Part shown: positions 3,085-24,132 of the stretch, one piece after another
How the letters are laid out: every line of letters starts with the position of its first letter
Position numbering within the stretch: position 1 is the stretch's first letter
Source: a phage
Strand: one strand, 5' to 3'
Length of the DNA stretch: 64,000 nucleotides
NCBI GenBank assembly: GCA_019326865.1
Contig: GCA_019326865.1_4101.1
The notes under the pieces: generated by a model
What the model saw: the letters and a program-made list of their open reading frames with translations, nothing else
What the model was told of the DNA's origin: nothing
Databases searched by the model: none
Translations under genes and position numbers: made by a program

Positions 3085-3085
3085 G

Positions 3086-3430: not shown

Positions 3431-3439
3431 GAGACATAT

Positions 3440-5919: not shown

Positions 5920-6402
5920 ATGAACTATTTAGATTTAATTAATACGTATGTCATCAGCCCATATCTTAACGATGAAAGTATCAAATGTGTAGTATCTGTT
6001 GATAATCATCCAAATGGTGCATTAGAACTATTCGGTGCAGGACAGATTAACAATCGTTGTGGGTATACTTTTGAGTACTTACCAGAAAGAGATGTATTTG
6101 GTTGTTATGACCACAAAATCAAAAAAGGTGCTATATGGGGTAATCACAAAGATATTGCACAATCTTCACTTTTCGAAGATCATAATGGATATATGTGGCG
6201 TTCTCTTGGTGCAGTCCTACTTGATATCGCCCGTAGATATAAAAAGCGTATAACTCTTACTTATACACATACAGTTGAATATAAAAATGAAGTACAAGTA
6301 GAAGATGAAGAATTTTTTAAAAGTATCCCGTACATTGAATTCAACTTCCAAAACGGGTATGCTATATATCCTGATGATTTTATTGGTGAAAAATATTTTT
6401 AA
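5920..6402 (+). CDS. hypothetical protein (160 aa)
   Basis: ORF downstream of promoter/terminator element, SD ggaaggatg. Confidence 0.6.
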   Translation: MNYLDLINTYVISPYLNDESIKCVVSVDNHPNGALELFGAGQINNRCGYTFEYLPERDVFGCYDHKIKKGAIWGNHKDIAQSSLFEDHNGYMWRSLGAVLLDIARRYKKRITLTYTHTVEYKNEVQVEDEEFFKSIPYIEFNFQNGYAIYPDDFIGEKYF

Positions 6403-6493
6403 AAAATATTTGAAAAGAAAAGAATAAGTGCTATAATTATTACATCAAGACAACAAACACTAACATGTAAACGCTACTAATTAGGAGACACAC

Positions 6494-6904
6494 ATGATTA
6501 ACAAACATTTCGCAGTTTCTAAAACAGTAACCATCGATAACGAATGGGAAATTACTATTCTTAATGATCCTGCTCGTGGGTTGCTTGCAGAGAATCTTGT
6601 ACAGAAATACATCGACTGTAAGTCTGAATTGATTATTCACGACCGTACCAAATTTCTTCTCATCAATGGCAAGAAGTGTAAAGTATTAGTATTCACGGAT
6701 AAAATGAGCCGTGCAGACATTATCACCAAATTGGTAAGTTCTTCACGTCACCGCCCAGGAGTTAACAAATCTATCGAAGAAGTTAAAGATATGAAGCCTG
6801 GTGATTTATTCATTATTGCGGGTTTTGATTCTAAAACAAGAGAAATGTACATTTCAGAAATGTACACTAATGCTGAAATGCGTAACAAATTCTTCTCTAA
6901 CTAA
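6494..6904 (+). CDS. hypothetical protein (136 aa)
   Basis: ORF with SD aggagac. Confidence 0.6.
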   Translation: MINKHFAVSKTVTIDNEWEITILNDPARGLLAENLVQKYIDCKSELIIHDRTKFLLINGKKCKVLVFTDKMSRADIITKLVSSSRHRPGVNKSIEEVKDMKPGDLFIIAGFDSKTREMYISEMYTNAEMRNKFFSN

Positions 6905-6935
6905 TCAACCTAATTATGTATTATACAAATCTATA

Positions 6936-8153
6936 ATGGATAAAAATATGATCTTCGAAACAGAAAAAACTTTACTTGAAACTTATACTTTAGAAAATCT
7001 TGTACAACTTAATCTGGCCCGTCCTGATATTCAACGAAACTGGCAATGGAAAAGTAATAATCAAAATAATCTTATAATTTCTATTCTAAAGAATTCACCA
7101 ATTGGACAATTTTTGGTATGGAATGAAACTTCTTCAAATACAATGTACATTACTGATGGACGCCATCGTTATACTGTAATTTCAAACTTCATTAATAATA
7201 AGTTCCCAGTAACAGTTAAAACCGAAAGTGGAACCAAAGATTATTATTATGGTTCTGACGATCCAATCGAAGAAGAAAACATTTCACTAAAACTTGGTGG
7301 TAAAAGTAAGACTTGGAATTTCTTATCAAAAGAAGAGCGTAATGCTTTTCGCAATAAAGAAGTATCAGTAACATTTGTTCATACAGATGATGCTGAGAAG
7401 ATTTCTGAAATGTTTATGGCTATCAACACTGCTTCATCTAATTTGTGTAAAGTAGACTTGCTGGTATGCAAGCACCACAAAAATGCATACATGAAACGTA
7501 TTGATAAACTATTTTCAATTGAGATTGAAAAAGATGACCAAATGGCAGTTCTAGTTAGCGATTTCTATCGTGCAATCGGACACTGTAATGTCAACGGTAA
7601 TTACGAGAAACATTTAGCTAAACTTAAAGCTAACCCAAAAGTTCAGAAGCGTGAATTTTTTGAGATGTATTTTATGGTACGAGCCTTCACCAAATTGTGT
7701 CGTGATGCTTTAAACGATACATTGAATTCATATCGTATGCCTAAGATGAATAAACAAATTGAAGATGCTATTATTAGTACTGAATCACTGAGTGAACAGC
7801 AAGCTAACGCCGATTTTGTTCAGTTCGTGAATGCAGTTCGTGAGATGAACCTTGTATCTCCAATAAAAGATTTACAAAAGTTTCAATTCATCCACGAAGA
7901 TATGAAGAATACCTTTAACAAGCGTCTTTTTTGTATCTTAATGGGATTATATTATGCTTACGGTACACGTTTACCATTGCATTTTCGTGATGTTTGGTGT
8001 GCCATTTATAATGAAATGTCAGAAAAAAGTACTGAACTACCAACAAACGGGACTGATAGTTCTTCTGCTATTGTAGCTGGTATCCAATTGATTGAACCGT
8101 ACTTTAGTTCAGCCTTTAATAATATTTCATTGAGTGCTCGCGTGGGAAAGTGA
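6936..8153 (+). CDS. DUF262/ParB-like (GmrS-like) domain protein; motifs PDIQRNWQW and ITDGRHRYT
   Basis: N-terminal motifs resemble DUF262 signature (QR..W ... DGQQR); start placed after upstream stop; ends GTG-GGA-AAG-TGA. Confidence 0.55.
   Translation: MDKNMIFETEKTLLETYTLENLVQLNLARPDIQRNWQWKSNNQNNLIISILKNSPIGQFLVWNETSSNTMYITDGRHRYTVISNFINNKFPVTVKTESGTKDYYYGSDDPIEEENISLKLGGKSKTWNFLSKEERNAFRNKEVSVTFVHTDDAEKISEMFMAINTASSNLCKVDLLVCKHHKNAYMKRIDKLFSIEIEKDDQMAVLVSDFYRAIGHCNVNGNYEKHLAKLKANPKVQKREFFEMYFMVRAFTKLCRDALNDTLNSYRMPKMNKQIEDAIISTESLSEQQANADFVQFVNAVREMNLVSPIKDLQKFQFIHEDMKNTFNKRLFCILMGLYYAYGTRLPLHFRDVWCAIYNEMSEKSTELPTNGTDSSSAIVAGIQLIEPYFSSAFNNISLSARVGK
8144..8150 (+). other. candidate -1 programmed frameshift heptamer G_GGA_AAG immediately before stop
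   Basis: X_XXY_YYZ heptamer in zero frame of DUF262 ORF; -1 frame continues directly into HNH ORF. Confidence 0.4.
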
Positions 8154-12456: not shown

Positions 12457-12791
12457 TGGAGTATTTTATTGATTTACTGCCGTGGTATATGAAAGTGAGT
12501 ATTTTATACTATATTATTAGTACTGGATTCTACTTCCTGATGTGGTTTTTTAAACGACCAATTTCAGTGTACATTGCTAATAACATGCTGCAATTAAAAT
12601 TACACGCATGGTTTTTTATGGCGATGTTTATGCCTATTATTCACTACTCAATGATTAGTATAGGTTTACGTTCTAATGGTGAACCAATTGTATTAGTATT
12701 CTATTGGGGTTCAACTATAGTATATTTCGGTTTGCTATTGTTCCCCATCATTCATAAATTACGTGCTAAAGTTCCTGATGCGAGGTATTAA
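12453..12791 (+). CDS. small multi-TM membrane protein, family A
   Basis: Paralog (RAKVPDARY tail). Confidence 0.6.
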   Translation: MMEYFIDLLPWYMKVSILYYIISTGFYFLMWFFKRPISVYIANNMLQLKLHAWFFMAMFMPIIHYSMISIGLRSNGEPIVLVFYWGSTIVYFGLLLFPIIHKLRAKVPDARY

Positions 12792-13105
12792 TGGATATCG
12801 TAACATTGATCTACACGTTGTATTCATTCTATTTCATTATGTGTTGGGTTGGATTTTTATTTGTACTCAAGATGTTTGATTATGTTGAAAAACAGATAAA
12901 AGATTTTTGTATTCCTTTTATCGGTTCAACCATTATTAGTGTTTCTTGTGTTTATTTTTTAGTGTTTGATCCACCAGATAACACTGCGATGATTGACTTC
13001 ATGTTACTACCAACCACTGTAATTTTTTTATGTAGTCTGATGCCACCTATTAGTCGTGGATTAACTGAATTTAGACGCAAACAAAAGCGTAAAAGAGGGA
13101 TGTAA
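12791..13105 (+). CDS. small multi-TM membrane protein, family A
   Basis: Paralog, basic tail. Confidence 0.6.
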   Translation: MDIVTLIYTLYSFYFIMCWVGFLFVLKMFDYVEKQIKDFCIPFIGSTIISVSCVYFLVFDPPDNTAMIDFMLLPTTVIFLCSLMPPISRGLTEFRRKQKRKRGM

Positions 13106-13473
13106 TGGAAATTGCTCTTATTATCTTAACTGCTATGCTGTTTATTAGTACATTGGTTATAATTGGCAAATTCTTTTGTGTATCATTTTTAGAAACGGTA
13201 TACGATGAAATTGCTGATGATTATGAATTACACGCCGGATTTTTCATTACGTATTGGCTTAGTTTATTTTGTCTAGTCATTGTTTGGATTTTACATATCT
13301 TTAAATGGGGTATGGTGGACGGTGATCCTATCATGGCAATTATTGTTCTAGTGTTTGGTATCCTAGGTGGTGCAGTACATAATATGATGGTTATTTGGCA
13401 AACTGTTCAATGTGTATTGGTTCCTTATTTCGAAAAAATGCACAGTACAATTAAAAAACGTAAACGAGGTTAG
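13105..13473 (+). CDS. small multi-TM membrane protein, family A
   Basis: Paralog, basic tail KKRKRG. Confidence 0.6.
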   Translation: MEIALIILTAMLFISTLVIIGKFFCVSFLETVYDEIADDYELHAGFFITYWLSLFCLVIVWILHIFKWGMVDGDPIMAIIVLVFGILGGAVHNMMVIWQTVQCVLVPYFEKMHSTIKKRKRG

Positions 13474-13474
13474 T

Positions 13475-13837
13475 ATGAACGGGATTGAATTATCTTTCAT
13501 TGGTCAAATACTAGTAATGGTGAATACTTTCTTTTTCTCACTTATTGCATTAATGTGCATTGGAAAGTATTTTCATAAACAACCATTCTCAAATTTATAT
13601 GATGTAATAAAAAAGAAATATAGTCCTGCACATAGTGTACTTATTTGCAGTTTCAATTTTGGTTTTGTTGTATTAATAATTGGATTGTTAACATCAACGT
13701 CAAATGTAATGATCTTCGGTCTTATGATCTGTTCATTGGTATTAGCAGTAATTGTATGTTGTTTAGTACTGCACCTTGTAGTACTATTATATATAAAGCT
13801 CGTTGAAATCCATCAACGTTTAGGTATGAGGAAATAA
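13475..13837 (+). CDS. small multi-TM membrane protein, family A
   Basis: Start at ATG after upstream stop. Confidence 0.55.
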   Translation: MNGIELSFIGQILVMVNTFFFSLIALMCIGKYFHKQPFSNLYDVIKKKYSPAHSVLICSFNFGFVVLIIGLLTSTSNVMIFGLMICSLVLAVIVCCLVLHLVVLLYIKLVEIHQRLGMRK

Positions 13838-13838
13838 T

Positions 13839-14210
13839 ATGAGTTACCGTGAGATATTTTCCATTATTTCAATTATTATGTTCAGTGCTGGGACATTGGT
13901 GTGGGTATTATATTTTTTCTGTGTATCACCAGTGTATAATATGTTATGTAATATTAAATCAAGTTCTGGATATATGACTTTTATGATCTTTATGGGATAT
14001 TATTGTCTAAGCATTTTAGGTGTTGTTTTGGTTGTTATATTTGATGTAGGGCCAAATAAGGATGGTCTGAAAATGTATGAGTTAATAACTATGTTTGGGT
14101 GTATGATACCAACTGCACTAATGTTTGTAGCTATTGGTGCTGGATGTATAAAGTTATACAATTATTTAAAATCCATTCATCATTCCATTCATAATAAACG
14201 TATGTCATAA
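13839..14210 (+). CDS. small multi-TM membrane protein, family A
   Basis: Paralog. Confidence 0.6.
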   Translation: MSYREIFSIISIIMFSAGTLVWVLYFFCVSPVYNMLCNIKSSSGYMTFMIFMGYYCLSILGVVLVVIFDVGPNKDGLKMYELITMFGCMIPTALMFVAIGAGCIKLYNYLKSIHHSIHNKRMS

Positions 14211-14217: not shown

Positions 14218-14237
14218 CCAGTACTGAATAGTACTGG
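14218..14237 (+). terminator. hairpin ccagtac-tgaata-gtactgg
   Basis: Perfect 7-bp stem after membrane array. Confidence 0.45.
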
Positions 14238-14251: not shown

Positions 14252-14902
14252 ATGATGAAATCAAAATTAGGTTTGTTTTATGGAAACTACTTCATTAAAC
14301 AGCGTAAATTCATAAAAAAATACTTCTCCACAGAGAAATCTAGTCCTATAATTTTTAAAAGACCAAAATATAATTTTTACTTAGCAGGTGCTAAACAGTC
14401 TAAGAAATTCATTACATTTTTAAATAAAAACAAAATTAAAGCTTCTTATGTTGAAACTAGAAAGAACTCATCGATAATTCCTGGTGATTTCATTGAATAC
14501 GGATGTTTCAATATTAAGTACAATGATAGCACATACTGTATGGATATTGATTGCAATACATCAAATCTTTTTAACATTGTAATAAATCCATCGAAACAAT
14601 ATAATGTTTATGGTGATTCAATTATCAAATTAATAAAAAACAAAGATTGGTTTGATTTTGAAATAAATGTTTTAGATGAAAATTATGATGAAGTTCCAGT
14701 TAACCCTGAAATATGTGATATATTAAACAGTTTAAAAGGTAGTAGCTACAATATACCATCTGATTTAATGTTTCAGTACTCTTTAATACATAAAGATATT
14801 GAACATTATATTGTGTGTGCTAAAATCTTGAATTATCTGTATGATGAATTTAAAATGAGTTCTAAAATAACAGCATATACTCTTTATAATATTTCTATAT
14901 AA
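14252..14902 (+). CDS. hypothetical protein (216 aa), very AT-rich
   Basis: ORF with SD aaggag. Confidence 0.55.
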   Translation: MMKSKLGLFYGNYFIKQRKFIKKYFSTEKSSPIIFKRPKYNFYLAGAKQSKKFITFLNKNKIKASYVETRKNSSIIPGDFIEYGCFNIKYNDSTYCMDIDCNTSNLFNIVINPSKQYNVYGDSIIKLIKNKDWFDFEINVLDENYDEVPVNPEICDILNSLKGSSYNIPSDLMFQYSLIHKDIEHYIVCAKILNYLYDEFKMSSKITAYTLYNISI

Positions 14903-14913
14903 TTTAAAATATT

Positions 14914-14939
14914 AAAGCCAGTACGAGAGCACTGGCTTT
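14914..14939. terminator. bidirectional hairpin aaagccagt..actggcttt between convergent genes
   Basis: Inverted repeat with flanking A/T runs on both strands. Confidence 0.55.
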
Positions 14940-14943
14940 AATA

Positions 14944-16089
14944 TTATTTTTTCCAAGGAAGTAACGAAGTTGGAATCTTGATAGGTATATTTGATGCAAC
15001 AACATCAGGAAAATTTGCATCTCCACAAACATACAAATTATCGATTTCGTCTATCAATAATGTATAGTTGTAACTTCTACAAAAACCACTTAAGACTCTT
15101 CCCTCTAATGCAGATAAATTCATTTCAGTGAATTGAGTGATATATGTTTCATTTGAACCAACACCACATTGACCATTAGCATTTATACCACAAGTAAGCA
15201 ATTTATTATTGTTTTGAATTACACATGATGGTCCAGCAAGGTTCGTACCTAGTTCACCTACAACATTAACTTCACCTTTTAATGATAAATTTGGGATCAC
15301 TGTACTCATTGGGACTCGAGATGTATTTCCGACACCTGCTTGCCCTGAGCCATTAGTGGATGCTACTTTAACAGTACCGTCATTAAGAAAAATATAAGAT
15401 GTTTCGATTGTATTAACTGCTTGAGTAGCTGATGTTATTGACGTATCCTGTTTGAATTTAAGTACATTTGTCGTTGTTGAACCAGAGATAAATGTAGCAC
15501 CTGCGTACCAATATGTTCCATCCTGGAGTACTAAACCAGTACTTCTAATTGAACACCCAGCACTTCGAACATTTTCTATATGACTATATGTAAAGGTTGA
15601 TACGATTGAAGATTCACCATTACCGAACACCCCACCAGTACCTGCACCACAGAAAAACCATTTACCGTTTTTCAAAAATACACGCATACAAGCAGAAATA
15701 ACCACACTATCAATATCACTTGCAGTTACACCAAAATCGGTAAATAAATGAGTTATATCAATCCAATTACCACCAGTATTTGATGGGAGATGTGGAATTA
15801 CAACTCTAGTCCCTGTGTACCAGATTGTATCATCATCTTTAATAACAAGCGTACCTTGAACACCACCCCAATACCTGGTTACATTAGTATTAACAAGTGT
15901 CCACTCATTAGATGATTCCGTTGAGCCATTACCACCTTGACCATATGATGATGAACCGCACCAGTATAAATTGCCATTTTTATTTAAATAAAATTTTGCA
16001 TCAGCCGAGCATTGTAATCTGTATTTGAATACGGTTTTTGGTGCTGGTGCAATATTTGCATACTTAATCATTCTTCCAAAAGGTAACAT
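14944..16089 (-). CDS. RCC1-repeat-like (beta-propeller) protein, paralog 1; N-terminus MLPFGRMIKYAN
   Basis: Repeated G-x-N-x-x-GQ-x-G-like motifs (e.g. LYWCGSSSYGQGGNG); conserved 5' cassette. Confidence 0.7.
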   Translation of the reverse strand: MLPFGRMIKYANIAPAPKTVFKYRLQCSADAKFYLNKNGNLYWCGSSSYGQGGNGSTESSNEWTLVNTNVTRYWGGVQGTLVIKDDDTIWYTGTRVVIPHLPSNTGGNWIDITHLFTDFGVTASDIDSVVISACMRVFLKNGKWFFCGAGTGGVFGNGESSIVSTFTYSHIENVRSAGCSIRSTGLVLQDGTYWYAGATFISGSTTTNVLKFKQDTSITSATQAVNTIETSYIFLNDGTVKVASTNGSGQAGVGNTSRVPMSTVIPNLSLKGEVNVVGELGTNLAGPSCVIQNNNKLLTCGINANGQCGVGSNETYITQFTEMNLSALEGRVLSGFCRSYNYTLLIDEIDNLYVCGDANFPDVVASNIPIKIPTSLLPWKK

Positions 16090-16138
16090 AATTTCTCTCC
16101 TTCATTCATTATACTGTATTTAACCCAATTAAGAAAAG

Positions 16139-16155
16139 CCAGTATCAAGTACTGG
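16139..16155 (-). terminator. hairpin ccagtatcaagtactgg
   Basis: Perfect inverted repeat after stop of 16163..17512; recurs at 17561 and 19997. Confidence 0.55.
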
Positions 16156-16162
16156 TATTTTA

Positions 16163-17512
16163 TTATTGTAATGGAATTTCAGTGAGTGTTTTATATGTAC
16201 TTCCGTTATACACCCCTCTCCAATATACTTTACCATCAGTACTAACCACTAATAATCCATATGTTGTAAACCCAAGAGTACCACCAACATACATAGCATC
16301 TTTGATTCTAATACCAATGTCTTCATATGTAAATGACGCGACTGCACCCGCTTGCCATGAAGGACTAGCGTAGTAATCACTATAAACACCATGTGCTTTA
16401 TATATTGATGTTGTTCCTGGTTCAAAAATTACAGTTCCACAGTAGTTCATTCGTATTTTAGTACTGGATGAAGTTGGTACATTTATACCTACGTCATCTT
16501 TTATCCCTGTGGTTAGGACGTTAAAACCACCCGCCACACGGTTGACGTCATTCGCACCGATTAAATACATACCAACGTTGTAGCCCATATAAAACACACT
16601 AGAGCTTCCATTCCAGAAAGAAAAACCACCACCATTCCCACAGCGATATAGTTGTGAATTTGAGCAGTACATCATACCTTCGTTTGTCGCATCAAATTCA
16701 TCTGCTTTTCCTATTGTAGCTACTGTAGTCCAAGTTTTAATTACTTGGTTTGTACTAGCTGGTGTTTGTATACCATATCGTATATTATACCCTTTACCGA
16801 CTATTGTACCATCTTCTAATTTGGCATAAAGTACAGGTCTATTACCAACAAAATACATATTATTGTGTGACATGTCTATTGTGCATCTTAATGAAACTAC
16901 TTTTTGTTTCAATTGATTATCTTTAGTAAAAGAAGTAAAGTAGTAATCTGATGTTGAGTTGTTTATTAAACCTTGTATTGACAACCCCATATACCAGATT
17001 TCTCCATTACTGTTCAATGCTGCCAAAATACAACTATATTTTGAAGTATATGCTGGGGTTACTGATGTTGCTGGTCCTTTATCATATCCACCACAGAATA
17101 CCATCTCCACAACTTCACCCACGTTAGCAAAATAAGAAGATACATTGATAAAACCATTTGTTATAAAAGGTGCTGTATTTATACTTGAATGTGTGAATAT
17201 CCCATTTGCATATACACCACAAAAATGATATGAACCATCATTATCTTGGACTATTATTCCATTTGATAGTAACCAAAAATTGTTTACATTTTTTCTTACT
17301 AATTCGATTCCTGCCCCATTAGTTGGCGTTATACCAAAAGAAACATATTTTGTTTGACCAATTCCATATAAATTTCCATTTGATGCTAATATTGCACCAA
17401 ACCAATTACCACCACCATTCTTGTTATGACCCATACCTATAGAATCAAATTTCTTAACAGTAGGAGCTTGTACTTTGTTCCCATAATTCACCATTCTTCC
17501 AAAAGGTAACAT
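16163..17512 (-). CDS. RCC1-repeat-like protein, paralog 2; N-terminus MLPFGRMVNYGN
   Basis: Conserved N-terminus and upstream motif; G/S/T/N-rich repeats. Confidence 0.65.
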   Translation of the reverse strand: MLPFGRMVNYGNKVQAPTVKKFDSIGMGHNKNGGGNWFGAILASNGNLYGIGQTKYVSFGITPTNGAGIELVRKNVNNFWLLSNGIIVQDNDGSYHFCGVYANGIFTHSSINTAPFITNGFINVSSYFANVGEVVEMVFCGGYDKGPATSVTPAYTSKYSCILAALNSNGEIWYMGLSIQGLINNSTSDYYFTSFTKDNQLKQKVVSLRCTIDMSHNNMYFVGNRPVLYAKLEDGTIVGKGYNIRYGIQTPASTNQVIKTWTTVATIGKADEFDATNEGMMYCSNSQLYRCGNGGGFSFWNGSSSVFYMGYNVGMYLIGANDVNRVAGGFNVLTTGIKDDVGINVPTSSSTKIRMNYCGTVIFEPGTTSIYKAHGVYSDYYASPSWQAGAVASFTYEDIGIRIKDAMYVGGTLGFTTYGLLVVSTDGKVYWRGVYNGSTYKTLTEIPLQ

Positions 17513-17560
17513 ATTTCCCTCCTTTATTCATTATACTATATTTAATACTAAAAGAAAAAG

Positions 17561-17577
17561 CCAGTATCAAGTACTGG
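17561..17577 (-). terminator. hairpin ccagtatcaagtactgg
   Basis: Same hairpin, after stop of 17585..18694. Confidence 0.55.
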
Positions 17578-17584
17578 CATTATG

Positions 17585-18694
17585 TCATTTTGGTAAATTA
17601 ATTTTAGTAAAGGCTGCAACATCCTCGATTGCACCAGGAATTGCGTAATACGATCCAGTACTATATACATCTCCGTCTTTGGTTAATATTGATGTTAAAC
17701 CATCACTAAAAAGAACATCCCTAATCTCACTAACTTCAACGGGTAATTGTAAATTAGTAGCACTATATATTGCACCAGTTTGAGAATTGTTTAATCCCAA
17801 ACCACGGTTCGCCCCAACACCCTTCTGATATGTACTAGTAATTACCATTTGTGTAGCAGTATTTAAGGCAGGTGAATTCGTCATAAACAACGGTGAACTA
17901 TTAGGCAAAGTACTTGCAGGAACTGCACGAAATGTAGTTGTATCTGAACTAAGAAAGTTTGGCGTTTGACCACATACGAAATATGATGTACCATTATAGT
18001 AATTAAATGCATTACCACCAATGACTGCATCGATTACACCAGAGCTACGTAATCCCCACGTGTTAATTTGTGTTCGGTTCCCCGTGCCATGCTGACCCCT
18101 GTCATTCCACCCAGAACTATATAACTTATTATCTAATGTAATATACATACTGTCATTTGCATTCGTCATTACTTTACGCACATTAGTAGCACATTGAGTT
18201 AATGTGTAAATTGATGATGAACCAATACCTAAAGCACCACGATATCCATTAGCTCCTGCACCATAGAGTACTGAACTAGTGCTAAGTACAAATATTAAAC
18301 CATACGAACATACAATATTAGCAATTTCACTCACTGGTATAGCACTGGTAAACCAATTAGTTCTTTCAACTAATACTGTGCTGTAAGAAGTAGTTGTAGA
18401 CGATGTGAACCAATATGTTTCCCCTGATGTCCATATAGTATTATCATTTTTAATAATAACAAGTGCACGATCACCTACGAAAAAATTAGAAACATCTGCA
18501 CTTACTAATATCCATGAAGATACCGTGTTTTTATTACCATTTCCAGATTCACCACCTTGATTTCTACCTATGTAATATAAATCATGTGAATCAGTTAATA
18601 AGAATTGACCCTGTGTAGATGCACCAACTTTAATTATATTTTTAGGACCAGGTACAATATTCCCATAATCAAACATTCTTACAAAAGGTAACAT
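17585..18694 (-). CDS. RCC1-repeat-like protein, paralog 3; N-terminus MLPFVRMFDYGN
   Basis: Start placed at conserved MLPF methionine with SD ggag (track start is 15 nt upstream); motifs LYYIGRNQGGESGNG, LYSSGWNDRGQHGTGN. Confidence 0.65.
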   Translation of the reverse strand: MLPFVRMFDYGNIVPGPKNIIKVGASTQGQFLLTDSHDLYYIGRNQGGESGNGNKNTVSSWILVSADVSNFFVGDRALVIIKNDNTIWTSGETYWFTSSTTTSYSTVLVERTNWFTSAIPVSEIANIVCSYGLIFVLSTSSVLYGAGANGYRGALGIGSSSIYTLTQCATNVRKVMTNANDSMYITLDNKLYSSGWNDRGQHGTGNRTQINTWGLRSSGVIDAVIGGNAFNYYNGTSYFVCGQTPNFLSSDTTTFRAVPASTLPNSSPLFMTNSPALNTATQMVITSTYQKGVGANRGLGLNNSQTGAIYSATNLQLPVEVSEIRDVLFSDGLTSILTKDGDVYSTGSYYAIPGAIEDVAAFTKINLPK

Positions 18695-18768
18695 AACTAA
18701 AATCTCCATATAATAATTATAATGTATTTACAAAAAAATACCAGTACGTATTTCAGTACTGGTATCAT

Positions 18769-19950
18769 TTATGGTAAAATGATAGATTGTAACGAACTCA
18801 TACCCAATGCTGGAACACTAGCCTGTGGTGCTGGAGAATTCAATTTTGGTGATGAAACCGCATATGACATTCCTGAACCCAAATCTGGATCAAAAACTAC
18901 AGCACAATAATTCCCACTATATATAAGTCCATTCTTGTATCCTTGTGCACTTTGAATGCATTTCGTGAACGTACCAATATCTGTCGTGGCATTTATTAAG
19001 TTCCTCCCACGATAACCGCAGGTGTATATGAAATTATCATCGCCTATGTACATACTAGAATCCCCAGAAGAACTACATAGATACGACATATAAGCACGCA
19101 TGTTTTTAGGAGCAACTGACAATGTACCTGCATAGAATTTATTATTCGAACCCGTAATATCACCATCACCCAATGCACCAAAACTTCCCCAGCCAGTACC
19201 GTAATATCTCTTATCACTCAAAAATATAATACAGTTGTTATTACACATCTTGATTTGATATATCAATGAAGGATCAACCCCAGGGAATGATTCAGTGAAT
19301 GTTAGAACAGCCGGATCAGTACTAGCATTACATTGATGATATGTATTAGTACCAGCGGACAAGATTGTTCCATTAGCTAACAGAATTCTCGCAGTACCAG
19401 TACCAGCAGTACAAGCAACTGCACTTCCTGCACTTCCGGTGTATATTTGTCTGAAAGTAAAGAAACCAACAGTTTTACTTCCCTGCCCACTCCAACCAGT
19501 ATTATCAACTCCACACGCCCATACTGAACCATCTTGCATGATCATCATTACACCAAAGCGTTCTATTGAAATATAAACAATCTTCGTTGTATCAACTGCA
19601 CTAAATCTAGAAGTTATATCAGTCCATACCTTAACACTTACCGCCGTCGCACTGGAAGTAGGATCTTCACCAGCTATCATTATCCTCCCATTGTTAGTAA
19701 GATACATTGTCTGACTATAACCAGTACTACAAAACTTAACACTATCAGTCTCTGGAACTTTTAACCACTCGTTGTAACGTGTTACGTTAGTGTTATTACC
19801 TAACTGATAATAGTTATTCATCCCAGATACATATAACACACCATCCTTTATTAAACTATAAGTCGCACTATAGTCACTACAGGTATAACGTGTACCCACA
19901 GGTCGCTCAACGACGTTCCCGTACTTAACCATTCTCCCAAAAGGTAACAT
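18769..19950 (-). CDS. RCC1-repeat-like protein, paralog 4; N-terminus MLPFGRMVKYGN
   Basis: Motifs LYVSGMNNYYQLGNN, VWACGVDNTGWSGQG. Confidence 0.7.
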   Translation of the reverse strand: MLPFGRMVKYGNVVERPVGTRYTCSDYSATYSLIKDGVLYVSGMNNYYQLGNNTNVTRYNEWLKVPETDSVKFCSTGYSQTMYLTNNGRIMIAGEDPTSSATAVSVKVWTDITSRFSAVDTTKIVYISIERFGVMMIMQDGSVWACGVDNTGWSGQGSKTVGFFTFRQIYTGSAGSAVACTAGTGTARILLANGTILSAGTNTYHQCNASTDPAVLTFTESFPGVDPSLIYQIKMCNNNCIIFLSDKRYYGTGWGSFGALGDGDITGSNNKFYAGTLSVAPKNMRAYMSYLCSSSGDSSMYIGDDNFIYTCGYRGRNLINATTDIGTFTKCIQSAQGYKNGLIYSGNYCAVVFDPDLGSGMSYAVSSPKLNSPAPQASVPALGMSSLQSIILP

Positions 19951-19996
19951 ATTTTCCTCCTTTATTCATTATACTATATTTAATACAAAAAGAAAT

Positions 19997-20015
19997 GCCA
20001 GTATCAAGTACTGGC
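19997..20015 (-). terminator. hairpin gccagtatcaagtactggc
   Basis: Same hairpin, after stop of 20024..21172. Confidence 0.55.
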
Positions 20016-20023
20016 ATATTAAT

Positions 20024-21172
20024 TCATTGTATAAATGACATATCTACTTCTGTATAATTAAGAACGTTCTGTCCAGAAATACCACCCATTACTACTATTG
20101 CAAGGCCACAATAATATAATTTTCCAGTATCCGTAAGTATAAGTGATCCAGATGGACTGCGTACCAAATCACACGAACTATTAAAAGAAGTATAAGAAGG
20201 AGTATAGGAGTACTGATTATTATTATTACCAACACCTAATTGCCCAAACCCATTCGATCCAGAAGCATATAGAACTTCATCTGCTTTGACAATATGTGAT
20301 GCCATGTTACCAACACAAGTATATAGAGTATAAACTCCTGAACTCAATAATGTCGGAGTTTTATATTGTATATCTGTAGATGTAGAAGTACCACCTGTAC
20401 CAAATTCGTTCCCATATTGTGCACCGAACTGTTTACCACAAGCGTACAAATTATTATCCGATTTGATAAAAAATGTACTCTGATAACTTACATTAAAATC
20501 TATAACATCCGAAGAAATCATCGTCACCCCAGTAATAGAAGTTTGATTACCCGTGCCCAACTGGTAGTAATAGTTAAAACCACAACCCCATAAAGTATTA
20601 TCTTCTCGCAAATAAATGTTACCAACTGCCTTTTTAACCGAAGTTATAGTATCTACTCTTTTGAATGTGTTAAAAGAATTAATGTTTGTACCATCACCAA
20701 ATGATGATATGTTCGATATATTGTTAACTCCACAACAATACAATGTACCATCTTTTGTTATCAAATTCACCTTCATATCATAAAAACTACTCATGTATTT
20801 TATATCAGAAACATTAACACCACTTGATGTTATCCACGTAGTACAGTCCGTCCACAAAGTTTTTCTATCAGTTACACCAGTGAATGCCTTCGTGTTACCA
20901 GTGATAAAAACTTTTCCAGTACCTTTCTCTTCATACAATTGACAATCACTACTGTTATCTTCCAATAGAACTCGTTTAACATTCTCCGCACAAAGAATAA
21001 ATTTACTCGATGCTACACCTGTACCAGTACCCCAATTCGTCGCAGAAGATGCATACAACTTATCAGTATAAGTATCATGAAGATACATAGAATCACTGGA
21101 ATATATTTTAAAACGCCCTTCTTTCTCAGGTATAATATTCCCGTACTTAACCATTCTCCCAAAAGGTAACAT
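20024..21172 (-). CDS. RCC1-repeat-like protein, paralog 5; N-terminus MLPFGRMVKYGN
   Basis: Clearest RCC1-like motifs: LYASGSNGFGQLGVGN, LWGCGFNYYYQLGTGN. Confidence 0.75.
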   Translation of the reverse strand: MLPFGRMVKYGNIIPEKEGRFKIYSSDSMYLHDTYTDKLYASSATNWGTGTGVASSKFILCAENVKRVLLEDNSSDCQLYEEKGTGKVFITGNTKAFTGVTDRKTLWTDCTTWITSSGVNVSDIKYMSSFYDMKVNLITKDGTLYCCGVNNISNISSFGDGTNINSFNTFKRVDTITSVKKAVGNIYLREDNTLWGCGFNYYYQLGTGNQTSITGVTMISSDVIDFNVSYQSTFFIKSDNNLYACGKQFGAQYGNEFGTGGTSTSTDIQYKTPTLLSSGVYTLYTCVGNMASHIVKADEVLYASGSNGFGQLGVGNNNNQYSYTPSYTSFNSSCDLVRSPSGSLILTDTGKLYYCGLAIVVMGGISGQNVLNYTEVDMSFIQ

Positions 21173-21268
21173 ATCCCCTCCTTATTCATTATATCATATT
21201 TACCCAAAAAACACTTGACACCCTTTCAGTACTGTTGTACGATAGAAGGAATATTAGGAGAACTACAC

Positions 21269-21496
21269 ATGACAAATACCCTTAAGTACTACCTCAATAC
21301 TCTGCCCGACCTAGAGTACGGGAAGTTTCTCGCAGATAGTTCGTGGCTGATTGAGCTAAAAACACATAACAGCCCTGGATGCACCCTTATGATGAACAAT
21401 GCAATTGATACCCTTATAGTGAGTATTTTACATAGCAATATCTACGAGGATAACAATAAACAATTAACAAAAATCTTAGTACTGCTATCTCTATGA
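21269..21496 (+). CDS. small protein, family C (MHKEFY...LIYRY-type)
   Basis: Start at ATG with SD aggag; tandem paralog. Confidence 0.5.
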   Translation: MTNTLKYYLNTLPDLEYGKFLADSSWLIELKTHNSPGCTLMMNNAIDTLIVSILHSNIYEDNNKQLTKILVLLSL

Positions 21497-21705
21497 ACAC
21501 TATGAGCACTGAACAGTTCTACATCAATGCACTACCAACTAAAAGTCTTCAAGAAAGCTTACTGTATACACAAAAGAATTTTAAAAACTTCAAACGTTGC
21601 CCTAAACTACTGAACTCGTACAGGAATAATATTATAAGAAATGTTTTACAAGGAGAAGAAAGTATGCAATACTATCACATCCTTATCCTTATATTGGAGT
21701 ACTAA
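21493..21705 (+). CDS. small protein, family C
   Basis: Tandem paralog, ATGA overlap. Confidence 0.5.
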   Translation: MNTMSTEQFYINALPTKSLQESLLYTQKNFKNFKRCPKLLNSYRNNIIRNVLQGEESMQYYHILILILEY

Positions 21706-21706
21706 T

Positions 21707-21916
21707 ATGAATACTGAACATAAAGAATTCTACACCAAATACCTCAGTAACGAAGAACAATTGTTTCTAAGAAGTGTATCACCTGTAAGTACCAATACTC
21801 AATTCGGTAGAGATTGCTTTAATAATTGTATACGTAGTACCCTAGAAGCTATCGAATACAATAACAAAAATATTATGTACTCAGGTTTAATAGGACTAAT
21901 ATTCTTCTATGAATAA
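21707..21916 (+). CDS. small protein, family C (MNTEHKEFY..)
   Basis: Start at family-typical N-terminus. Confidence 0.55.
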   Translation: MNTEHKEFYTKYLSNEEQLFLRSVSPVSTNTQFGRDCFNNCIRSTLEAIEYNNKNIMYSGLIGLIFFYE

Positions 21917-22103
21917 TCATAAAGATTTCTATGGTAGTAAACTACACAAACATGAACAGCTATCATTCTCTTTAGCACCACCTATGAGAAAGGATAATCT
22001 ATATTATAATTACGATTTCAGGATGGCGACACGTTATGCAATAGAACATCAGTTCCCTGAAACTAAGTACCGCTCTATCCTGAACCTCATCTTTAAGTTC
22101 TAA
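21909..22103 (+). CDS. small protein, family C (MNNHKDFY..LIFKF)
   Basis: Tandem paralog. Confidence 0.55.
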   Translation: MNNHKDFYGSKLHKHEQLSFSLAPPMRKDNLYYNYDFRMATRYAIEHQFPETKYRSILNLIFKF

Positions 22104-22150
22104 AAACCGCACCAGGGTCCGAGTACTTTAACATAGTAAGGCTAATTACA

Positions 22151-22336
22151 ATGAATCACATAAGCTACTACTACCAACAACTATCCGACAGAGACAAGTA
22201 CAGCCACAATTCCCATGTATGGTACTACAAACGCGGCAGTATAAGAGACAAACAACATTACTTCTGTATTTCTATTAAAGAAGCACTAACAACTAAGTAC
22301 ACGTACAGAGCAGTACTTAAACTAATCTCTATCTAA
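22151..22336 (+). CDS. small protein, family C
   Basis: Tandem paralog. Confidence 0.5.
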   Translation: MNHISYYYQQLSDRDKYSHNSHVWYYKRGSIRDKQHYFCISIKEALTTKYTYRAVLKLISI

Positions 22337-22344
22337 GGAATACT

Positions 22345-22524
22345 ATGCAAGAATTCTATATAGAACATATAACCATAAAAGACCGTTTCATGTACGACAC
22401 CTTCGTGAAATACTACAAACTGGGAACAAAAAGTACTAAAAATATTAATCTCAATAGCTGCATACACCAAGCACTAACAAAAGATAATCCCTTCAGGGAA
22501 ATCCTCGCTCTCGCATCTGTATAA
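22345..22524 (+). CDS. small protein, family C (MQEFYIEH..), 59 aa
   Basis: Below track cutoff; found by translating gap. Confidence 0.45.
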   Translation: MQEFYIEHITIKDRFMYDTFVKYYKLGTKSTKNINLNSCIHQALTKDNPFREILALASV

Positions 22525-22534
22525 AGGAAACCAA

Positions 22535-23194
22535 ATGAAACTTAATCAACACAGCAAACAATACCTTAAACACTTTAAGTACCTCAACAGTATTCAAGCA
22601 GAATCTTTTACACCAGCATATACGTATCACCCAAATGTACTAAAGAAACGAAATAAAAAGAAAAAATCCAGAAATGTTCTCGTATCTAAGAACCTCAAAT
22701 CGTACTTGAAGAAAAATAATATAGCTCTTGCTTTTATTAATATCTATAATACTGATTTAAAAGTATTGAGTACTAATACCAGCACAAAAGCACTAAAGAA
22801 TGCATCTATCTATATACACATGGATAATATCCCGTGCACTATAATTCTATCTTCCGGGAATGTATACTTCTTCGGGAATTGTAATAGCACCCATGATATC
22901 AGTACTGCACAATTCCAAATCGGAGATATGTACTGCATGGGTTCAGAAAAAATACACGATAACATGCACTTCTTCCAAAAGCAACGTACTAACGAAACTG
23001 ATACAGTACTGCAATTCCTCAAAGAATTACAAAACAAAGAATTATCCGAGGAAGAAGAATTCATGTACAGTACTGTAATCGATAATCCAGGACTCTATAA
23101 AAACGCGTACAAACTAACAAAACATGTACAGGAACTTATCAGTACTGATAAGAAATTCCATCACCTCATTACGTATATTTCAAACTATGTATAA
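22535..23194 (+). CDS. hypothetical protein (219 aa) within family C array
   Basis: Longer ORF. Confidence 0.55.
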   Translation: MKLNQHSKQYLKHFKYLNSIQAESFTPAYTYHPNVLKKRNKKKKSRNVLVSKNLKSYLKKNNIALAFINIYNTDLKVLSTNTSTKALKNASIYIHMDNIPCTIILSSGNVYFFGNCNSTHDISTAQFQIGDMYCMGSEKIHDNMHFFQKQRTNETDTVLQFLKELQNKELSEEEEFMYSTVIDNPGLYKNAYKLTKHVQELISTDKKFHHLITYISNYV

Positions 23195-23369
23195 AGAATT
23201 CTACAAAGATAAAATCCCAATGCATCTACAACACCATATACCAAACGTTGCATTGGGCATAAAAGATCACGCAAAGATAATGTTCCAACAATGTACTAAG
23301 TACACGCTCATATACGATGATAATCCATATATGCTGTACTACGTAGTAATGCTAACATTCAGGTACTAA
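23187..23369 (+). CDS. small protein, family C (MYKEFYKD..LTFRY)
   Basis: Tandem paralog. Confidence 0.55.
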   Translation: MYKEFYKDKIPMHLQHHIPNVALGIKDHAKIMFQQCTKYTLIYDDNPYMLYYVVMLTFRY

Positions 23370-23370
23370 T

Positions 23371-23550
23371 ATGCACAAATATAAAGAATTCTACCTCTCG
23401 TACCTTAATTCCGATATAGTAACATCCAATACCTTCAGTACTAAAATTATCTATAATGAAGTAATGAAAGAATGTATTAAAGGTGCTATTAACCCTAAAG
23501 ATACGTATGACTTGTACTATGCAGTACTAACCCTTGTTTTCACGAAATAA
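23371..23550 (+). CDS. small protein, family C (MHKYKEFY..), 59 aa
   Basis: Found by translating gap. Confidence 0.45.
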   Translation: MHKYKEFYLSYLNSDIVTSNTFSTKIIYNEVMKECIKGAINPKDTYDLYYAVLTLVFTK

Positions 23551-23558
23551 CACATAAT

Positions 23559-23747
23559 ATGAATAACCACAAAGAATACTACATACAATTTCTCCCCAGT
23601 ATTTTTGAACACTACGCCAGATATAAAGTCCCCCTGGATAACGATTTGGCAGTACTGGGATTCAATCACTGCATAGAACGAAGTATAGAAAATAGTAATA
23701 GCTATGAACAATTATATAACACTATCCTACTTATATTCAGGTACTAA
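23559..23747 (+). CDS. small protein, family C (MNNHKEYY..LIFRY)
   Basis: Tandem paralog. Confidence 0.55.
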   Translation: MNNHKEYYIQFLPSIFEHYARYKVPLDNDLAVLGFNHCIERSIENSNSYEQLYNTILLIFRY

Positions 23748-23748
23748 T

Positions 23749-23937
23749 ATGCACAAAGAATACTACGCAAAATATTTCCCAATGTATCTCAGAACTAATC
23801 TATTAGATAAACCTCGCGATATCAATGCACAAAACGATAAAGTGTACTTTATTATGTGCACTAAAGCATGTATACTAGATCATGACAGCTACCATCGAGT
23901 ACTGTATCATACACTGTACCTAGCTTTCGTATTCTAA
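23749..23937 (+). CDS. small protein, family C (MHKEYY..LAFVF)
   Basis: Tandem paralog. Confidence 0.55.
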   Translation: MHKEYYAKYFPMYLRTNLLDKPRDINAQNDKVYFIMCTKACILDHDSYHRVLYHTLYLAFVF

Positions 23938-23946
23938 GAGAACAAT

Positions 23947-24132
23947 ATGCATAAAGAATTCTACTTAAGCCATCTGGATCTAAACTCCCAAATGCTTATA
24001 CCACTAATCCCAATAGATATCAAGGATAAGAAAAATACCGAACAATTCATTTACCATACACAGTGTGCGATCACCCCAAATTACATTCCATATGAATTGT
24101 ACTACATTCTCGCCCTAATATATAGGTACTAA
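23947..24132 (+). CDS. small protein, family C (MHKEFY..LIYRY)
   Basis: Tandem paralog. Confidence 0.55.
   Translation: MHKEFYLSHLDLNSQMLIPLIPIDIKDKKNTEQFIYHTQCAITPNYIPYELYYILALIYRY

What the first reader, a model, noticed from the sequence alone, without database searches (positions are those of the whole stretch)
14944..21214. Five tandem RCC1-repeat-like paralogs sharing one 5' cassette
Five minus-strand genes (374-449 aa) carry G-x-N-x-x-GQLG-x-G-like repeats typical of RCC1 beta-propeller blades and are otherwise diverged. All share the N-terminal dodecapeptide MLPFGRMVKYGN (with variants), the SD, and an upstream block (..agtataatgaataaaggagg..), and each is preceded by the same hairpin. 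A conserved 5' module on variable bodies is the pattern seen for exchangeable virion or receptor-binding proteins, but function cannot be assigned.
Basis: partly seen in the sequence, partly recalled or inferred. Interest (0 to 1): 0.72.

Follow-up and report, generated by a model that had tools for sequence, protein, structure and literature searches.

The report
Tagged swappable virion proteins, jumbo phage
Five neighbouring genes of a jumbo E. coli phage encode propeller-shaped proteins that all start with the same 12-residue tag, and this tag marks a wider set of interchangeable proteins found in the virus particles of related phages.

Summary
Five minus-strand genes (14944-21172) encode RCC1-like seven-bladed propellers that are 22-29% identical in the body. 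All begin MLPF-x-RM-x-x-YGN, and each has its own promoter-like block, Shine-Dalgarno site and terminator hairpin. The hairpins follow each gene, so the first gene has none upstream.

The window comes from an Asteriusvirus-like jumbo coliphage. Multi-copy "RCC1 / DNA condensation" genes are already annotated in that group.

Three results appear to be new:
- **The peptide is a portable tag.** It is disordered in the AlphaFold model. In related jumbo phages (CBB, GAP32, metagenomic contigs) it also heads Kelch propellers, ConA-like lectins and other small bodies.
- **Tag-bearing proteins are enriched in published virion proteomes.** CBB has 7 of 9 (p=2e-6) and phAPEC6 has 8 of 13-14 (p=3e-5).
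- **The 36-nt tag sequence is the crossover point for cassette exchange.** Identity to a relative jumps from 45-61% upstream to 100% right after codon 12.

Best reading: the tag docks exchangeable binding domains onto the virion, most likely on the outside as accessory adhesins. Internal, T4-like packaged cargo is not excluded. Location and partner are inferred, not shown. I class it as a new variant of a known kind.

The parts
20024..21172 (-). g1: tag plus RCC1-like seven-bladed propeller (382 aa), first gene of the array
   Evidence: ORF. Pfam RCC1 and RCC1_2 above cut-off. AF2 pLDDT 92.9 with residues 1-15 below 50. Foldseek UVR8 E 7e-18, TM 0.74. 97% identical to phAPEC6 gp549, which was detected in virions.
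18769..19950 (-). g2: tag plus RCC1-like propeller (393 aa)
   Evidence: No ortholog in G17, phAPEC6 or the IMG/VR contig. An ortholog in metagenomic locus L137 carries a different tag variant and upstream region, and identity is 100% from nt +37 onward.
17585..18694 (-). g3: tag plus RCC1-like propeller (369 aa from the conserved start)
   Evidence: Its 5' module is 100% identical to that of a different body in L137, and its body is 88-96% identical to another L137 gene.
16163..17512 (-). g4: tag plus divergent RCC1-like propeller with insertions (449 aa)
   Evidence: No Pfam hit. PHROG 4219 E 1e-14. AF2 pLDDT 70.6, and the best Foldseek matches are HERC2 RLD and UVR8 at E 3e-10. Only 4 homologs were found in the word-indexed search of the 5.8 billion-cluster database.
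14944..16089 (-). g5: tag plus RCC1-like propeller (381 aa), last gene of the array
   Evidence: 59-70% identical to the phAPEC6 gp551, G17 and IMG/VR orthologs.
21137..21172 (-). Tag-coding 36 nt of g1 (MLPFGRMVKYGN). Equivalent stretches: 19915-19950, 18659-18694, 17477-17512 and 16054-16089.
   Evidence: It is the most conserved 12-aa stretch of the family, 0.89 against 0.33 for the body. Codons are fixed, including non-preferred ones. It is the crossover site. It is always at residue 1 in hits among 1.84 billion representative proteins.
21188..21202 (-). Promoter-like block TAAATAnnnTATAAT of g1. Equivalent blocks: 19968-19982, 18716-18730, 17530-17544 and 16108-16122.
   Evidence: In the window the block occurs only at these five genes. 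The TAAATA core lies upstream of 17 of 30 phAPEC6 morphogenesis-region genes, against 2.7% expected. Function is inferred.
19995..20017 (-). Terminator-like hairpin after g1. Equivalent hairpins: 18737-18766 after g2, 17560-17578 after g3 and 16139-16155 after g4.
   Evidence: Consensus scan. RNA folding gives -6.6 to -15 kcal/mol, z -3.2 to -4.9. The homologous hairpins in G17 are annotated as terminators.
14908..14945 (.). Terminator-like hairpin between g5 and the converging + strand gene 14252-14902; only the + strand reading has a clear T-run
   Evidence: flags it on the + strand: 15-bp stem, then ATTTTTTCCA. On the g5 (-) strand the hairpin folds at -21 kcal/mol, z -9, but is followed by only a weak T-run, so termination of g5 here is inferred.

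Best explanation
**What the genes encode.** The five genes encode accessory virion proteins of a Rak2-like (Asteriusvirus-type) jumbo phage. Each protein has two parts. The first is a flexible 12-15-residue N-terminal tag, M-[LI]-P-F-x-R-[MI]-x-x-Y-G-N. The second is a single globular beta-rich binding domain, which here is always an RCC1-like propeller.

**Proposed role of the tag (inferred).** The tag is a docking peptide that brings any body attached to it into the virion by binding one common virion component. I think the most likely location is the outside of the particle, on the hair-like fibres or on capsid or tail decoration sites. There the mixed bodies would act as accessory adhesins.

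**Transcription (inferred).** Each gene is its own transcription unit, with a late-type promoter core, an SD and a terminator.

**Array evolution (shown).** The repeated module of terminator, promoter, SD and tag (about 110 nt), and especially the 36-nt tag sequence, is the homology used for recombination. Whole cassettes are deleted, inserted and re-ordered without breaking reading frames. Between the same flanks this phage holds 5 cassettes and phAPEC6 holds 13-14.
For: **The tag lies outside the fold.** Residues 1-15 have pLDDT below 50 in an otherwise 92.9 model.

**The tag is portable.**
- Seven tandem genes in L126 all start MIPFA[RK]..YGN. Their bodies include Kelch (80 bits, cut-off 50), Laminin_G_3 (36.5, cut-off 27.6) and RCC1-like domains.
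- Nine CBB genes (Kelch, LamG, unknown) and GAP32_001 and GAP32_002 carry it.
- 94 unique tag proteins fall into 10 body clusters.
- Of 70 proteins scanned, 41 are RCC1-like, 7 Kelch and 7 LamG.

**Selection acts on the peptide.** Synonymous variation is free in the MIPF lineages. M1, P3, F4, Y10 and N12 are invariant in the 70-protein alignment; the only departure seen later is GAP32_002, which has D at 12.

**Virion association.**
- CBB: 7 of 9 tag proteins are among the 55 of 554 ORFs detected by MS, p=2e-6.
- phAPEC6: 8 of 14, p=3e-5.
- GAP32 gp001 is reported as MS-detected.

**Support for an external adhesin role.**
- The nearest bacterial homologs of the body are secreted or surface proteins with T9SS, dockerin or MucBP domains.
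- RCC1-like propellers form the C-termini of T7-like tail fibres in phages PollyC and Littlefix.
- PhiKZ gp298, a low-copy Kelch virion protein, is a host-specific adsorption factor.
- There is no conserved protease site after the tag, and the proteins are near neutral, pI 5.1-9.2.

**Recombination.**
- Junctions fall at the tag.
- The same body appears with three different upstream contexts, and gene order is shuffled between genomes.
- The flanks are homologous around 5 versus 13-14 cassettes.

**Late promoter core.**
Against: - No experiment localises these proteins or shows that the tag is needed for incorporation.
- The MS lists also contain obvious non-structural proteins such as topoisomerase, thymidylate synthase and ssDNA-binding protein. 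Abundant late proteins can therefore co-purify.
- Peptide counts for the phAPEC6 members are low, at 1-5.
- I scanned only the 18.6 kb CBB locus for tags, not the whole genome. The 7 of 9 could be diluted by undetected members elsewhere.
- Globular proteins of 25-50 kDa cannot by themselves form the 119-nm hairs.
- Short tags on diverse packaged proteins are equally the hallmark of T4 internal proteins. phAPEC6 has an inner body of unknown composition.
- The promoter timing is inferred from a 6-nt core only.
Confidence: 0.6

Rival explanations
1. Internal head cargo. The tag would be a capsid-targeting sequence like that of the T4 internal proteins. It would load the diverse bodies into the prohead or inner body, and they would be ejected with the DNA to act on host proteins, for example as anti-defence factors.
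For: [quoted passage not shown]
- phAPEC6 has an inner body of unknown composition, and its authors proposed the RCC1-like proteins for it.
- Kelch and RCC1 propellers are protein-binding modules.
- Virion MS is equally compatible with this reading.
- Repertoire turnover fits an arms race.
Against: - No conserved Glu or protease site follows the tag.
- The tag has no similarity to the T4 CTS.
- The bodies are 25-50 kDa, near-neutral, stable beta folds rather than small basic proteins.
- ConA-like lectin bodies and secreted bacterial homologs point to extracellular ligands.
- Phage precedents for these folds are adsorption proteins.
Confidence: 0.22
2. The proteins are abundant late, non-structural proteins that merely co-purify with virions. 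Examples would be intracellular binders of host or phage components. On this reading the tag serves another purpose, such as chaperone, protease or localisation recognition inside the infected cell.
For: The MS lists contain known non-structural proteins. Peptide counts in phAPEC6 are low. No structural density has been assigned to them.
Against: Enrichment is reproduced in two independently prepared virions of different genera, and a third (GAP32) is cited. It holds across different body folds. Coverage in CBB reaches 25-51% for several members.
Confidence: 0.1
3. The proteins are DNA condensation or chromosome-organising proteins, as the GenBank names and the phAPEC6 paper suggest.
For: The annotation comes from homology to eukaryotic RCC1.
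Against: - RCC1 is a Ran-GEF, and only the fold is shared at 15-18% identity.
- The proteins are not basic, with net charge -5 to +7.
- The same tag and locus carry Kelch and lectin bodies in sister phages.
- The nearest bacterial homologs are secreted.
Confidence: 0.03
4. The N-terminal conservation is a purely nucleotide-level effect, due to a translation-initiation region or very recent gene conversion, and the peptide has no function.
For: - Within Asteriusvirus, codons 2-4 and 6 are invariant, including the non-preferred CCT.
- The same codon is used at 83% of identical residues in the tag, against 47% in the bodies.
- Local homogenisation of tag variants is seen in G17 and L137.
Against: In other lineages the same residues are kept with varied codons: CCT/CCA/CCG/CCC, TTT/TTC, AGA/AGG/CGA, TAT/TAC. 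Y10, G11 and N12 vary synonymously even within Asteriusvirus. The tag is retained on unrelated folds across genera.
Confidence: 0.03

Closest known systems
Multi-copy 'RCC1-like / putative DNA condensation' proteins of Asteriusvirus and Mimasvirus jumbo phages (121Q_234-248, PBECO4, phAPEC6 gp549-gp010, GAP32 gp001)
   Same: It is the same gene family and locus. g1 is 97% identical to phAPEC6 gp549 and g3 is 93% identical to phAPEC6, G17 and IMG/VR orthologs. Multi-copy status and MS detection are already published.
   Different: The papers treat them as DNA-condensation candidates. In the text I could search they do not describe the shared N-terminal tag, its presence on the Kelch and LamG 'structural proteins' of CBB, or recombination at the tag. 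g2 and g4 have no ortholog above 31% in G17, phAPEC6 or the IMG/VR genome.
T4 internal proteins (IPI, IPII, IPIII, Alt) with the capsid targeting sequence
   Same: A short conserved N-terminal peptide sits on otherwise diverse proteins that end up in the virion, and the locus is plastic (PMC3012670).
   Different: There is no sequence similarity and no conserved protease cleavage site after the tag. The bodies are larger, near-neutral beta-rich binding domains. An internal location has not been shown.
Modular receptor-binding proteins with a conserved N-terminal anchor and an exchangeable distal domain (T7-gp17-like fibres, multi-tailspike systems)
   Same: They have a conserved N-terminus and swapped C-terminal binding domains, with recombination at the conserved part. 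RCC1-like propellers do occur as fibre tips in phages PollyC and Littlefix.
   Different: The anchor here is only 12-15 residues and disordered. There is no fibrous shaft or trimerisation region. Each protein is a single globular domain, and the docking partner is unknown.
PhiKZ gp298 (Kelch/NANM low-copy virion protein)
   Same: It is a beta-propeller accessory virion protein of a jumbo phage, required for adsorption to particular hosts only (PMC12676376).
   Different: It comes from an unrelated phage family. I did not check whether it carries a tag, and it is a single gene rather than an array.
Eukaryotic RCC1-like domains (RCC1, UVR8, HERC2 RLD, RPGR)
   Same: They share the seven-bladed propeller fold, TM 0.6-0.75, and the repeat motif.
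   Different: Identity is 15-18%, there is no Ran system in bacteria, and the biology is different.

Membership tests
RCC1-like domain (seven-bladed beta-propeller; Pfam RCC1, RCC1_2, WD40_RLD) | Repeated blade motif of about 50 aa recognised by the Pfam repeat models | tested here: met
   g1, g2 and g3 score above the curated cut-off for RCC1 and/or RCC1_2. g5 is just below (20.9 against 22). g4 has no hit. All five match PHROG 4219.
RCC1-like domain (seven-bladed beta-propeller; Pfam RCC1, RCC1_2, WD40_RLD) | Seven-bladed propeller three-dimensional fold | tested here: met
   The g1 model (pLDDT 92.9) matches UVR8, HERC2 and RCC1 at E 7e-18 to 6e-13, TM 0.6-0.75. The g4 model (pLDDT 70.6) has the same top hits with TM 0.43-0.6. 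g2, g3 and g5 were not modelled.
RCC1-like domain (seven-bladed beta-propeller; Pfam RCC1, RCC1_2, WD40_RLD) | Ran-GEF or chromatin-binding activity, the basis of the 'chromosome condensation' name | not testable with these tools
   Only the fold is shared. Near-neutral charge argues against bulk DNA binding.
T4-type capsid-targeting-sequence internal proteins | Short conserved N-terminal peptide on otherwise diverse proteins | tested here: met
T4-type capsid-targeting-sequence internal proteins | Prohead-protease cleavage site (L/I-x-E) directly after the targeting peptide | tested here: not met
   No conserved Glu follows YGN. Positions 13-20 vary freely.
T4-type capsid-targeting-sequence internal proteins | Location inside the head and ejection with the DNA | not testable with these tools
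   Virion MS in relatives does not resolve inside from outside.
Phage receptor-binding or adhesin proteins with a conserved N-terminal anchor | Conserved N-terminal attachment region with an exchangeable distal binding domain | tested here: met
   The tag is conserved across 10 body clusters. Exchange junctions lie at the tag. The anchor is unusually short, at 12-15 aa.
Phage receptor-binding or adhesin proteins with a conserved N-terminal anchor | Presence in the virion | tested here: inconclusive
   Published MS of relatives shows enrichment. There are no data for this phage, and co-purification is possible.
Phage receptor-binding or adhesin proteins with a conserved N-terminal anchor | Fibrous or trimeric shaft, or a demonstrated role in adsorption or host range | tested here: not met
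   The AF2 models are single globular domains without a shaft. A role in adsorption cannot be tested here.
T4-type late promoter | TATAAATA element about 10 nt upstream of the start site, with a phage late sigma factor | tested here: inconclusive
   The TAAATA core is invariant at all five genes and enriched upstream of phAPEC6 structural genes (17 of 30 against 2.7% expected). phAPEC6 encodes a late sigma factor. The first two consensus positions differ, and no transcript data exist.

The most novel reading that the evidence does not exclude
The 12-residue peptide M-[LI]-P-F-x-R-x-x-x-Y-G-N is a general virion-incorporation tag of Rak2-like jumbo phages. It would act as a plug-and-play docking signal that loads any of at least ten unrelated binding domains onto one shared virion site. 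Its own coding sequence would double as the recombination site that lets phages swap these domains. If so, the enigmatic 'hairy' jumbo phages carry a combinatorial adhesin display, and the tag could be used to load foreign proteins onto jumbo-phage particles.
Probability: 0.5. Interest if true: 0.78.

Novelty: new variant of a known kind. Interest (0 to 1): 0.62.

Why it matters
- **Re-interpretation of a mis-named family.** The "DNA condensation / RCC1" genes have been annotated by name in dozens of jumbo-phage genomes. This work recasts them as one branch of a tag-defined family of exchangeable virion accessory proteins.
- **A shared explanation for scattered proteome hits.** It links unexplained "structural proteins" in three published proteomes (phAPEC6, CBB, GAP32) through a single short peptide.
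- **A concrete experimental handle.** The composition and function of the hair-like appendages, or of the inner body, are open questions for these phages. The tag, its unknown docking partner and tag-GFP fusions make those questions testable.
- **Evolutionary interest.** A 36-nt coding repeat serves both as a protein signal and as the crossover site for cassette shuffling.
- **Practical interest.** A 12-residue incorporation tag would be useful for engineering the host range or cargo of therapeutic jumbo phages.

Tried and rejected
- **Exact 21-nt tag DNA in IMG/VR.** Locus L006 was a chance match inside an unrelated minus-strand ORF.
- **AT-rich promoter pattern in IMG/VR.** It gave more than 120 chance matches. 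The only useful result was that within the 348-kb Asteriusvirus contig it occurs only in the array.
- **Sigma-70 consensus scan.** The number of sites equalled the shuffle expectation (70 against 69), so it was uninformative.
- **Possible paralogy of flanking proteins.** The 216-aa and 219-aa proteins at 14252-14902 and 22535-23194 are not related (E=12).
- **Tag-only searches.**
  - A 40-aa N-terminal profile in the word-indexed database returned one fragment.
  - A PDB profile search gave only chance hits.
  - An exhaustive search with the window's five 30-mers found 18 representatives, all N-terminal matches, and no new body type.
- **Rfam.** There was no RNA family in 12-24 kb.
- **Literature.** I found nothing on the tag. 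The PA5oct, Sharanji, 121Q capsid and jumbo-phage comparative-genomics papers do not discuss these genes.
- **Velcro-strand idea.** I considered that the tag might be the strand that closes the propeller. I rejected it because the tag is disordered in the model and also occurs on non-propeller bodies.
- **Left undone.** The 7 of 9 count for CBB rests on one 18.6 kb locus only. Scanning the rest of the genome would show whether undetected tag genes dilute it.

Full report
**1. Observation**

The five minus-strand ORFs exist as described. They are g1 20024-21172, g2 18769-19950, g3 17585-18694 (from the conserved start), g4 16163-17512 and g5 14944-16089. They form an inverted island in a window that is otherwise transcribed on the + strand.

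Bodies are 22-29% identical, while residues 1-12 are nearly identical. The 21-nt start sequence occurs five times, against none in shuffles. The block TAAATAnnnTATAAT is found exactly at the five genes.

Two details in the finding need correction:
- The hairpins are terminator-like stem-loops with T-runs that follow each gene. g1, which faces a divergent intergenic region, has none upstream.
- g3 has a divergent leader.

**2. Fold**

Pfam RCC1-type models hit four of the five genes, and all five match PHROG 4219.

AlphaFold2 gives a confident all-beta model for g1 (pLDDT 92.9, pTM 0.89). It superposes on UVR8, HERC2 RLDs, RPGR and RCC1 (E 7e-18 to 6e-13, TM 0.6-0.75).

g4 has no Pfam hit. Its model is of moderate confidence (pLDDT 70.6), and its best matches are the same RCC1-like domains.

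In the g1 model, residues 1-15 have pLDDT below 50. This is exactly the most conserved segment of the family. The conserved peptide is therefore not part of the propeller.

**3. Where the window comes from and what is known**

Megablast places the window in Asteriusvirus-like jumbo coliphages such as phAPEC6, G17, Sharanji and 121Q-like phages. Identity is about 90-95%, and no record covers more than 60% of the array.

The genes are annotated there as "regulator of chromosome condensation", "putative DNA condensation protein", "HERC1" and similar names.

Two papers already note the multi-copy family:
- The phAPEC6 paper counts eleven copies and speculates on DNA organisation or the inner body.
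- The CBB paper lists copies in 121Q and PBECO4 and states that GAP32 gp001 was found in virions.

The family itself is therefore not new.

**4. The N-terminal peptide is a portable tag**

From the window, G17, phAPEC6 and an IMG/VR genome I collected 34 non-redundant members in 15 orthogroups. Mean body identity between groups is 20%. Residues 1-12 are the best-conserved 12-residue stretch of the protein, with a top-residue fraction of 0.89 against 0.33 for the body.

A more distant homolog led to contig L126. There, seven tandem genes all begin MIPFA[RK]..YGN but have different bodies. These include a Kelch propeller (80 bits against a cut-off of 50), a ConA-like lectin (Laminin_G_3, 36.5 bits against 27.6), an RCC1-like propeller and others.

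A degenerate DNA pattern for the tag found it only in arrays on jumbo-phage contigs of about 350-366 kb and a few fragments. This held in IMG/VR and in metagenomes.

The positional counterpart of the locus in Pectobacterium phage CBB carries nine tag genes: CBB_536, 537 and 548-554, with Kelch, LamG and unknown bodies. In CBB, GAP32 and the window the array lies next to the same block of tandem membrane-protein paralogs. In GAP32, gp001 (RCC1-like) and gp002 carry the full tag, gp530 a degenerate version (MLPFARIIKFGV), and gp531 is split across the ends of the record.

Summary counts:
- Of 70 tag proteins scanned, 41 are RCC1-like, 7 Kelch and 7 LamG, and the rest have no Pfam family.
- 94 unique tag proteins fall into 10 BLAST-level body clusters, all single-domain and 214-449 aa long.
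- M1, P3, F4, Y10 and N12 are invariant in the 70-protein alignment, and R6 and G11 are at least 90% conserved. Adding GAP32 brings one exception, D at position 12 in GAP32_002.
- In an exhaustive HMMER search of 1.84 billion representative proteins, every hit places the motif at the extreme N-terminus.
- No solved structure contains it.

**5. Virion association (literature plus my mapping)**

In phAPEC6, ESI-MS/MS of virions detected gp003, 005, 006, 007, 009, 010, 549 and 551. I verified that each begins MLPF[GA]RM..YGN. That is 8 of 13-14 members, and 8 of the 10 that were annotated and therefore searchable. The genome-wide rate is 62 of 551 (Fisher p=3e-5).

In CBB, 7 of the 9 tag genes are among the 55 of 554 ORFs detected (p=2e-6). 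This holds irrespective of body fold.

Caveats:
- Both lists also contain some clearly non-structural proteins.
- Peptide counts in phAPEC6 are low.
- I scanned only the CBB locus, not the whole genome.

**6. Peptide-level and DNA-level conservation; recombination**

Within Asteriusvirus the tag codons are almost frozen. L2 is TTA, P3 is CCT and R6 is AGA in 15 of 15 orthogroups, although CCT is used at only 30% of body prolines. The same codon is used at 83% of identical residues in the tag, against 47% in bodies.

In the MIPF lineages and in CBB the same residues are encoded with freely varying codons. The peptide itself is therefore under selection. The extra nucleotide identity in Asteriusvirus is best explained by recombination or gene conversion.

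The junctions are visible directly:

| Comparison | Upstream (-100 to -1) | nt 1-36 (tag) | Body (after nt 36) |
|---|---|---|---|
| g3 vs L137 gene with a different body | 100% | 97% | about 39-51% (random) |
| g3 vs its body ortholog in L137 | 42-55% | 94% | 88-96% |
| g2 vs its ortholog in L137 | 45-61% | 83% | 100% at first (nt 37-150), 95-96% further in |

L137 has the order g2-ortholog, body X, g3-ortholog. The window has g2 followed by g3, and g3 carries X's 5' module. This is the product expected of a crossover between two tag repeats that deleted body X.

Further signs of modularity:
- One body (the g3 group) has three different upstream contexts in three genomes.
- The array-leading upstream block sits on different bodies in G17 and phAPEC6.
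- Cassette order differs between genomes.
- Tag variants are locally homogenised: ARMMNYGN on three neighbours in G17, and VRMFDYGN on most paralogs in L137 and L144.
- Homologous flanks enclose 5 cassettes here and 13-14 in phAPEC6.

**7. Transcription signals**

Each gene is followed by a stable hairpin. Four of the five have a clear T-run after it. After g5 the T-run is weak on the g5 strand, and that hairpin is shared with the converging + strand gene. The homologous hairpins in G17 are annotated as terminators.

The invariant TAAATA lies 34-39 nt upstream of each ATG. In the phAPEC6 morphogenesis region, 17 of 30 genes have TAAATA at -80 to -11, against 2.7% expected. It is usually part of (T)ATAAATA, the T4-type late promoter, and the phage encodes a late sigma factor.

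The adjoining TATAAT is specific to the array. Late expression is therefore plausible but inferred.

**8. Mechanism**

What is shown:
- The proteins are modular, with a disordered tag and a globular body.
- The tag is portable across folds and genera.
- Tag proteins are enriched in virion proteomes of relatives.
- Recombination occurs at the tag.

What is inferred: the tag docks the proteins to one common virion component.

I favour an external, accessory-adhesin role for these reasons:
- The bodies are lectin or propeller binding domains, and their nearest bacterial relatives are secreted or surface proteins.
- RCC1-like propellers form the tips of T7-like fibres in other phages.
- A low-copy Kelch virion protein of PhiKZ is a host-specific adsorption factor.
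- There is no protease site after the tag.
- The proteins are near neutral.
- These phages carry unexplained hair-like fibres on head and tail.

The main rival is T4-like internal cargo with a capsid-targeting sequence. It fits the short-tag-on-diverse-bodies pattern and the inner body of phAPEC6, and it is not excluded. "DNA condensation" and a purely nucleotide-level explanation are poorly supported.

**9. Verdict**

The RCC1-like array itself is already known.

The added value has three parts: the recognition of a short, cross-fold, cross-genus N-terminal tag; its statistical link to virion incorporation; and the demonstration that its coding sequence is the crossover point for cassette exchange. 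I found no description of any of these in the searchable literature.

I rate it a new variant of a known kind, namely modular virion proteins with a conserved N-terminal targeting or anchoring element. Interest is moderate to high.

Noticed in passing
window 21215-24132 (+ strand) and beyond: A tandem family of 60-93-aa ORFs. Many start MN(N)HKE(F/Y)Y and end in ..LIFRY or ..LAFVF-like motifs. They are homologous to 121Q_249-265 and G17_00054-69, and their function is unknown.
   Followed up: no
window 12791-14210 (+ strand); L136 (CBB_539-547); L156 (GAP32_522-529): Four tandem transmembrane-protein paralogs (104-141 aa) with basic C-terminal tails. The same kind of membrane-protein paralog block sits beside the tag-gene array in CBB and GAP32, there with a ~207-aa DUF1190 protein. 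The window has a 216-aa ORF (14252-14902) in the matching position, which I did not test for DUF1190. The neighbourhood is conserved and its meaning is unknown.
   Followed up: partly
window 14218-14237 and 63837-63862: Hairpins with the same CCAGTAC...GTACTGG stem as the hairpin after g2 occur elsewhere in the window. This suggests a stem sequence reused for terminators across the genome.
   Followed up: no
L003 (phAPEC6 MK817115) 2434-3543, 6063-7253, 7325-8059; 3-1145 and 1218-2360: Three family members in the phAPEC6 record are unannotated or mis-annotated (gp002 start, gp004), so they could not have been found by MS. gp550 and gp551 are repeated at the start of the record, either from an assembly overlap or a real duplication.
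   Followed up: partly
window 20000-24000: GC skew stays strongly negative (about -0.22) over 21.2-24 kb, although the small genes there are on the + strand. Elsewhere in the window, + strand genes go with positive skew.
   Followed up: no
L137 and L144 (ENA metagenome contigs OERM01000014.1, OEQX01000370.1): A related phage lineage carries the tag variant MLPFVRMFDYGN on six of eight paralogs. In the window only g3 has it. This could reflect lineage-wide homogenisation or co-evolution with a partner.
   Followed up: partly
L126 972-5613: In the MIPF lineage most tag genes lack their own promoter and terminator. They are tightly packed or overlapping (for example ATGA at 1637-1640), so they form an operon. 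This contrasts with the one-gene-one-promoter layout in the window.
   Followed up: no
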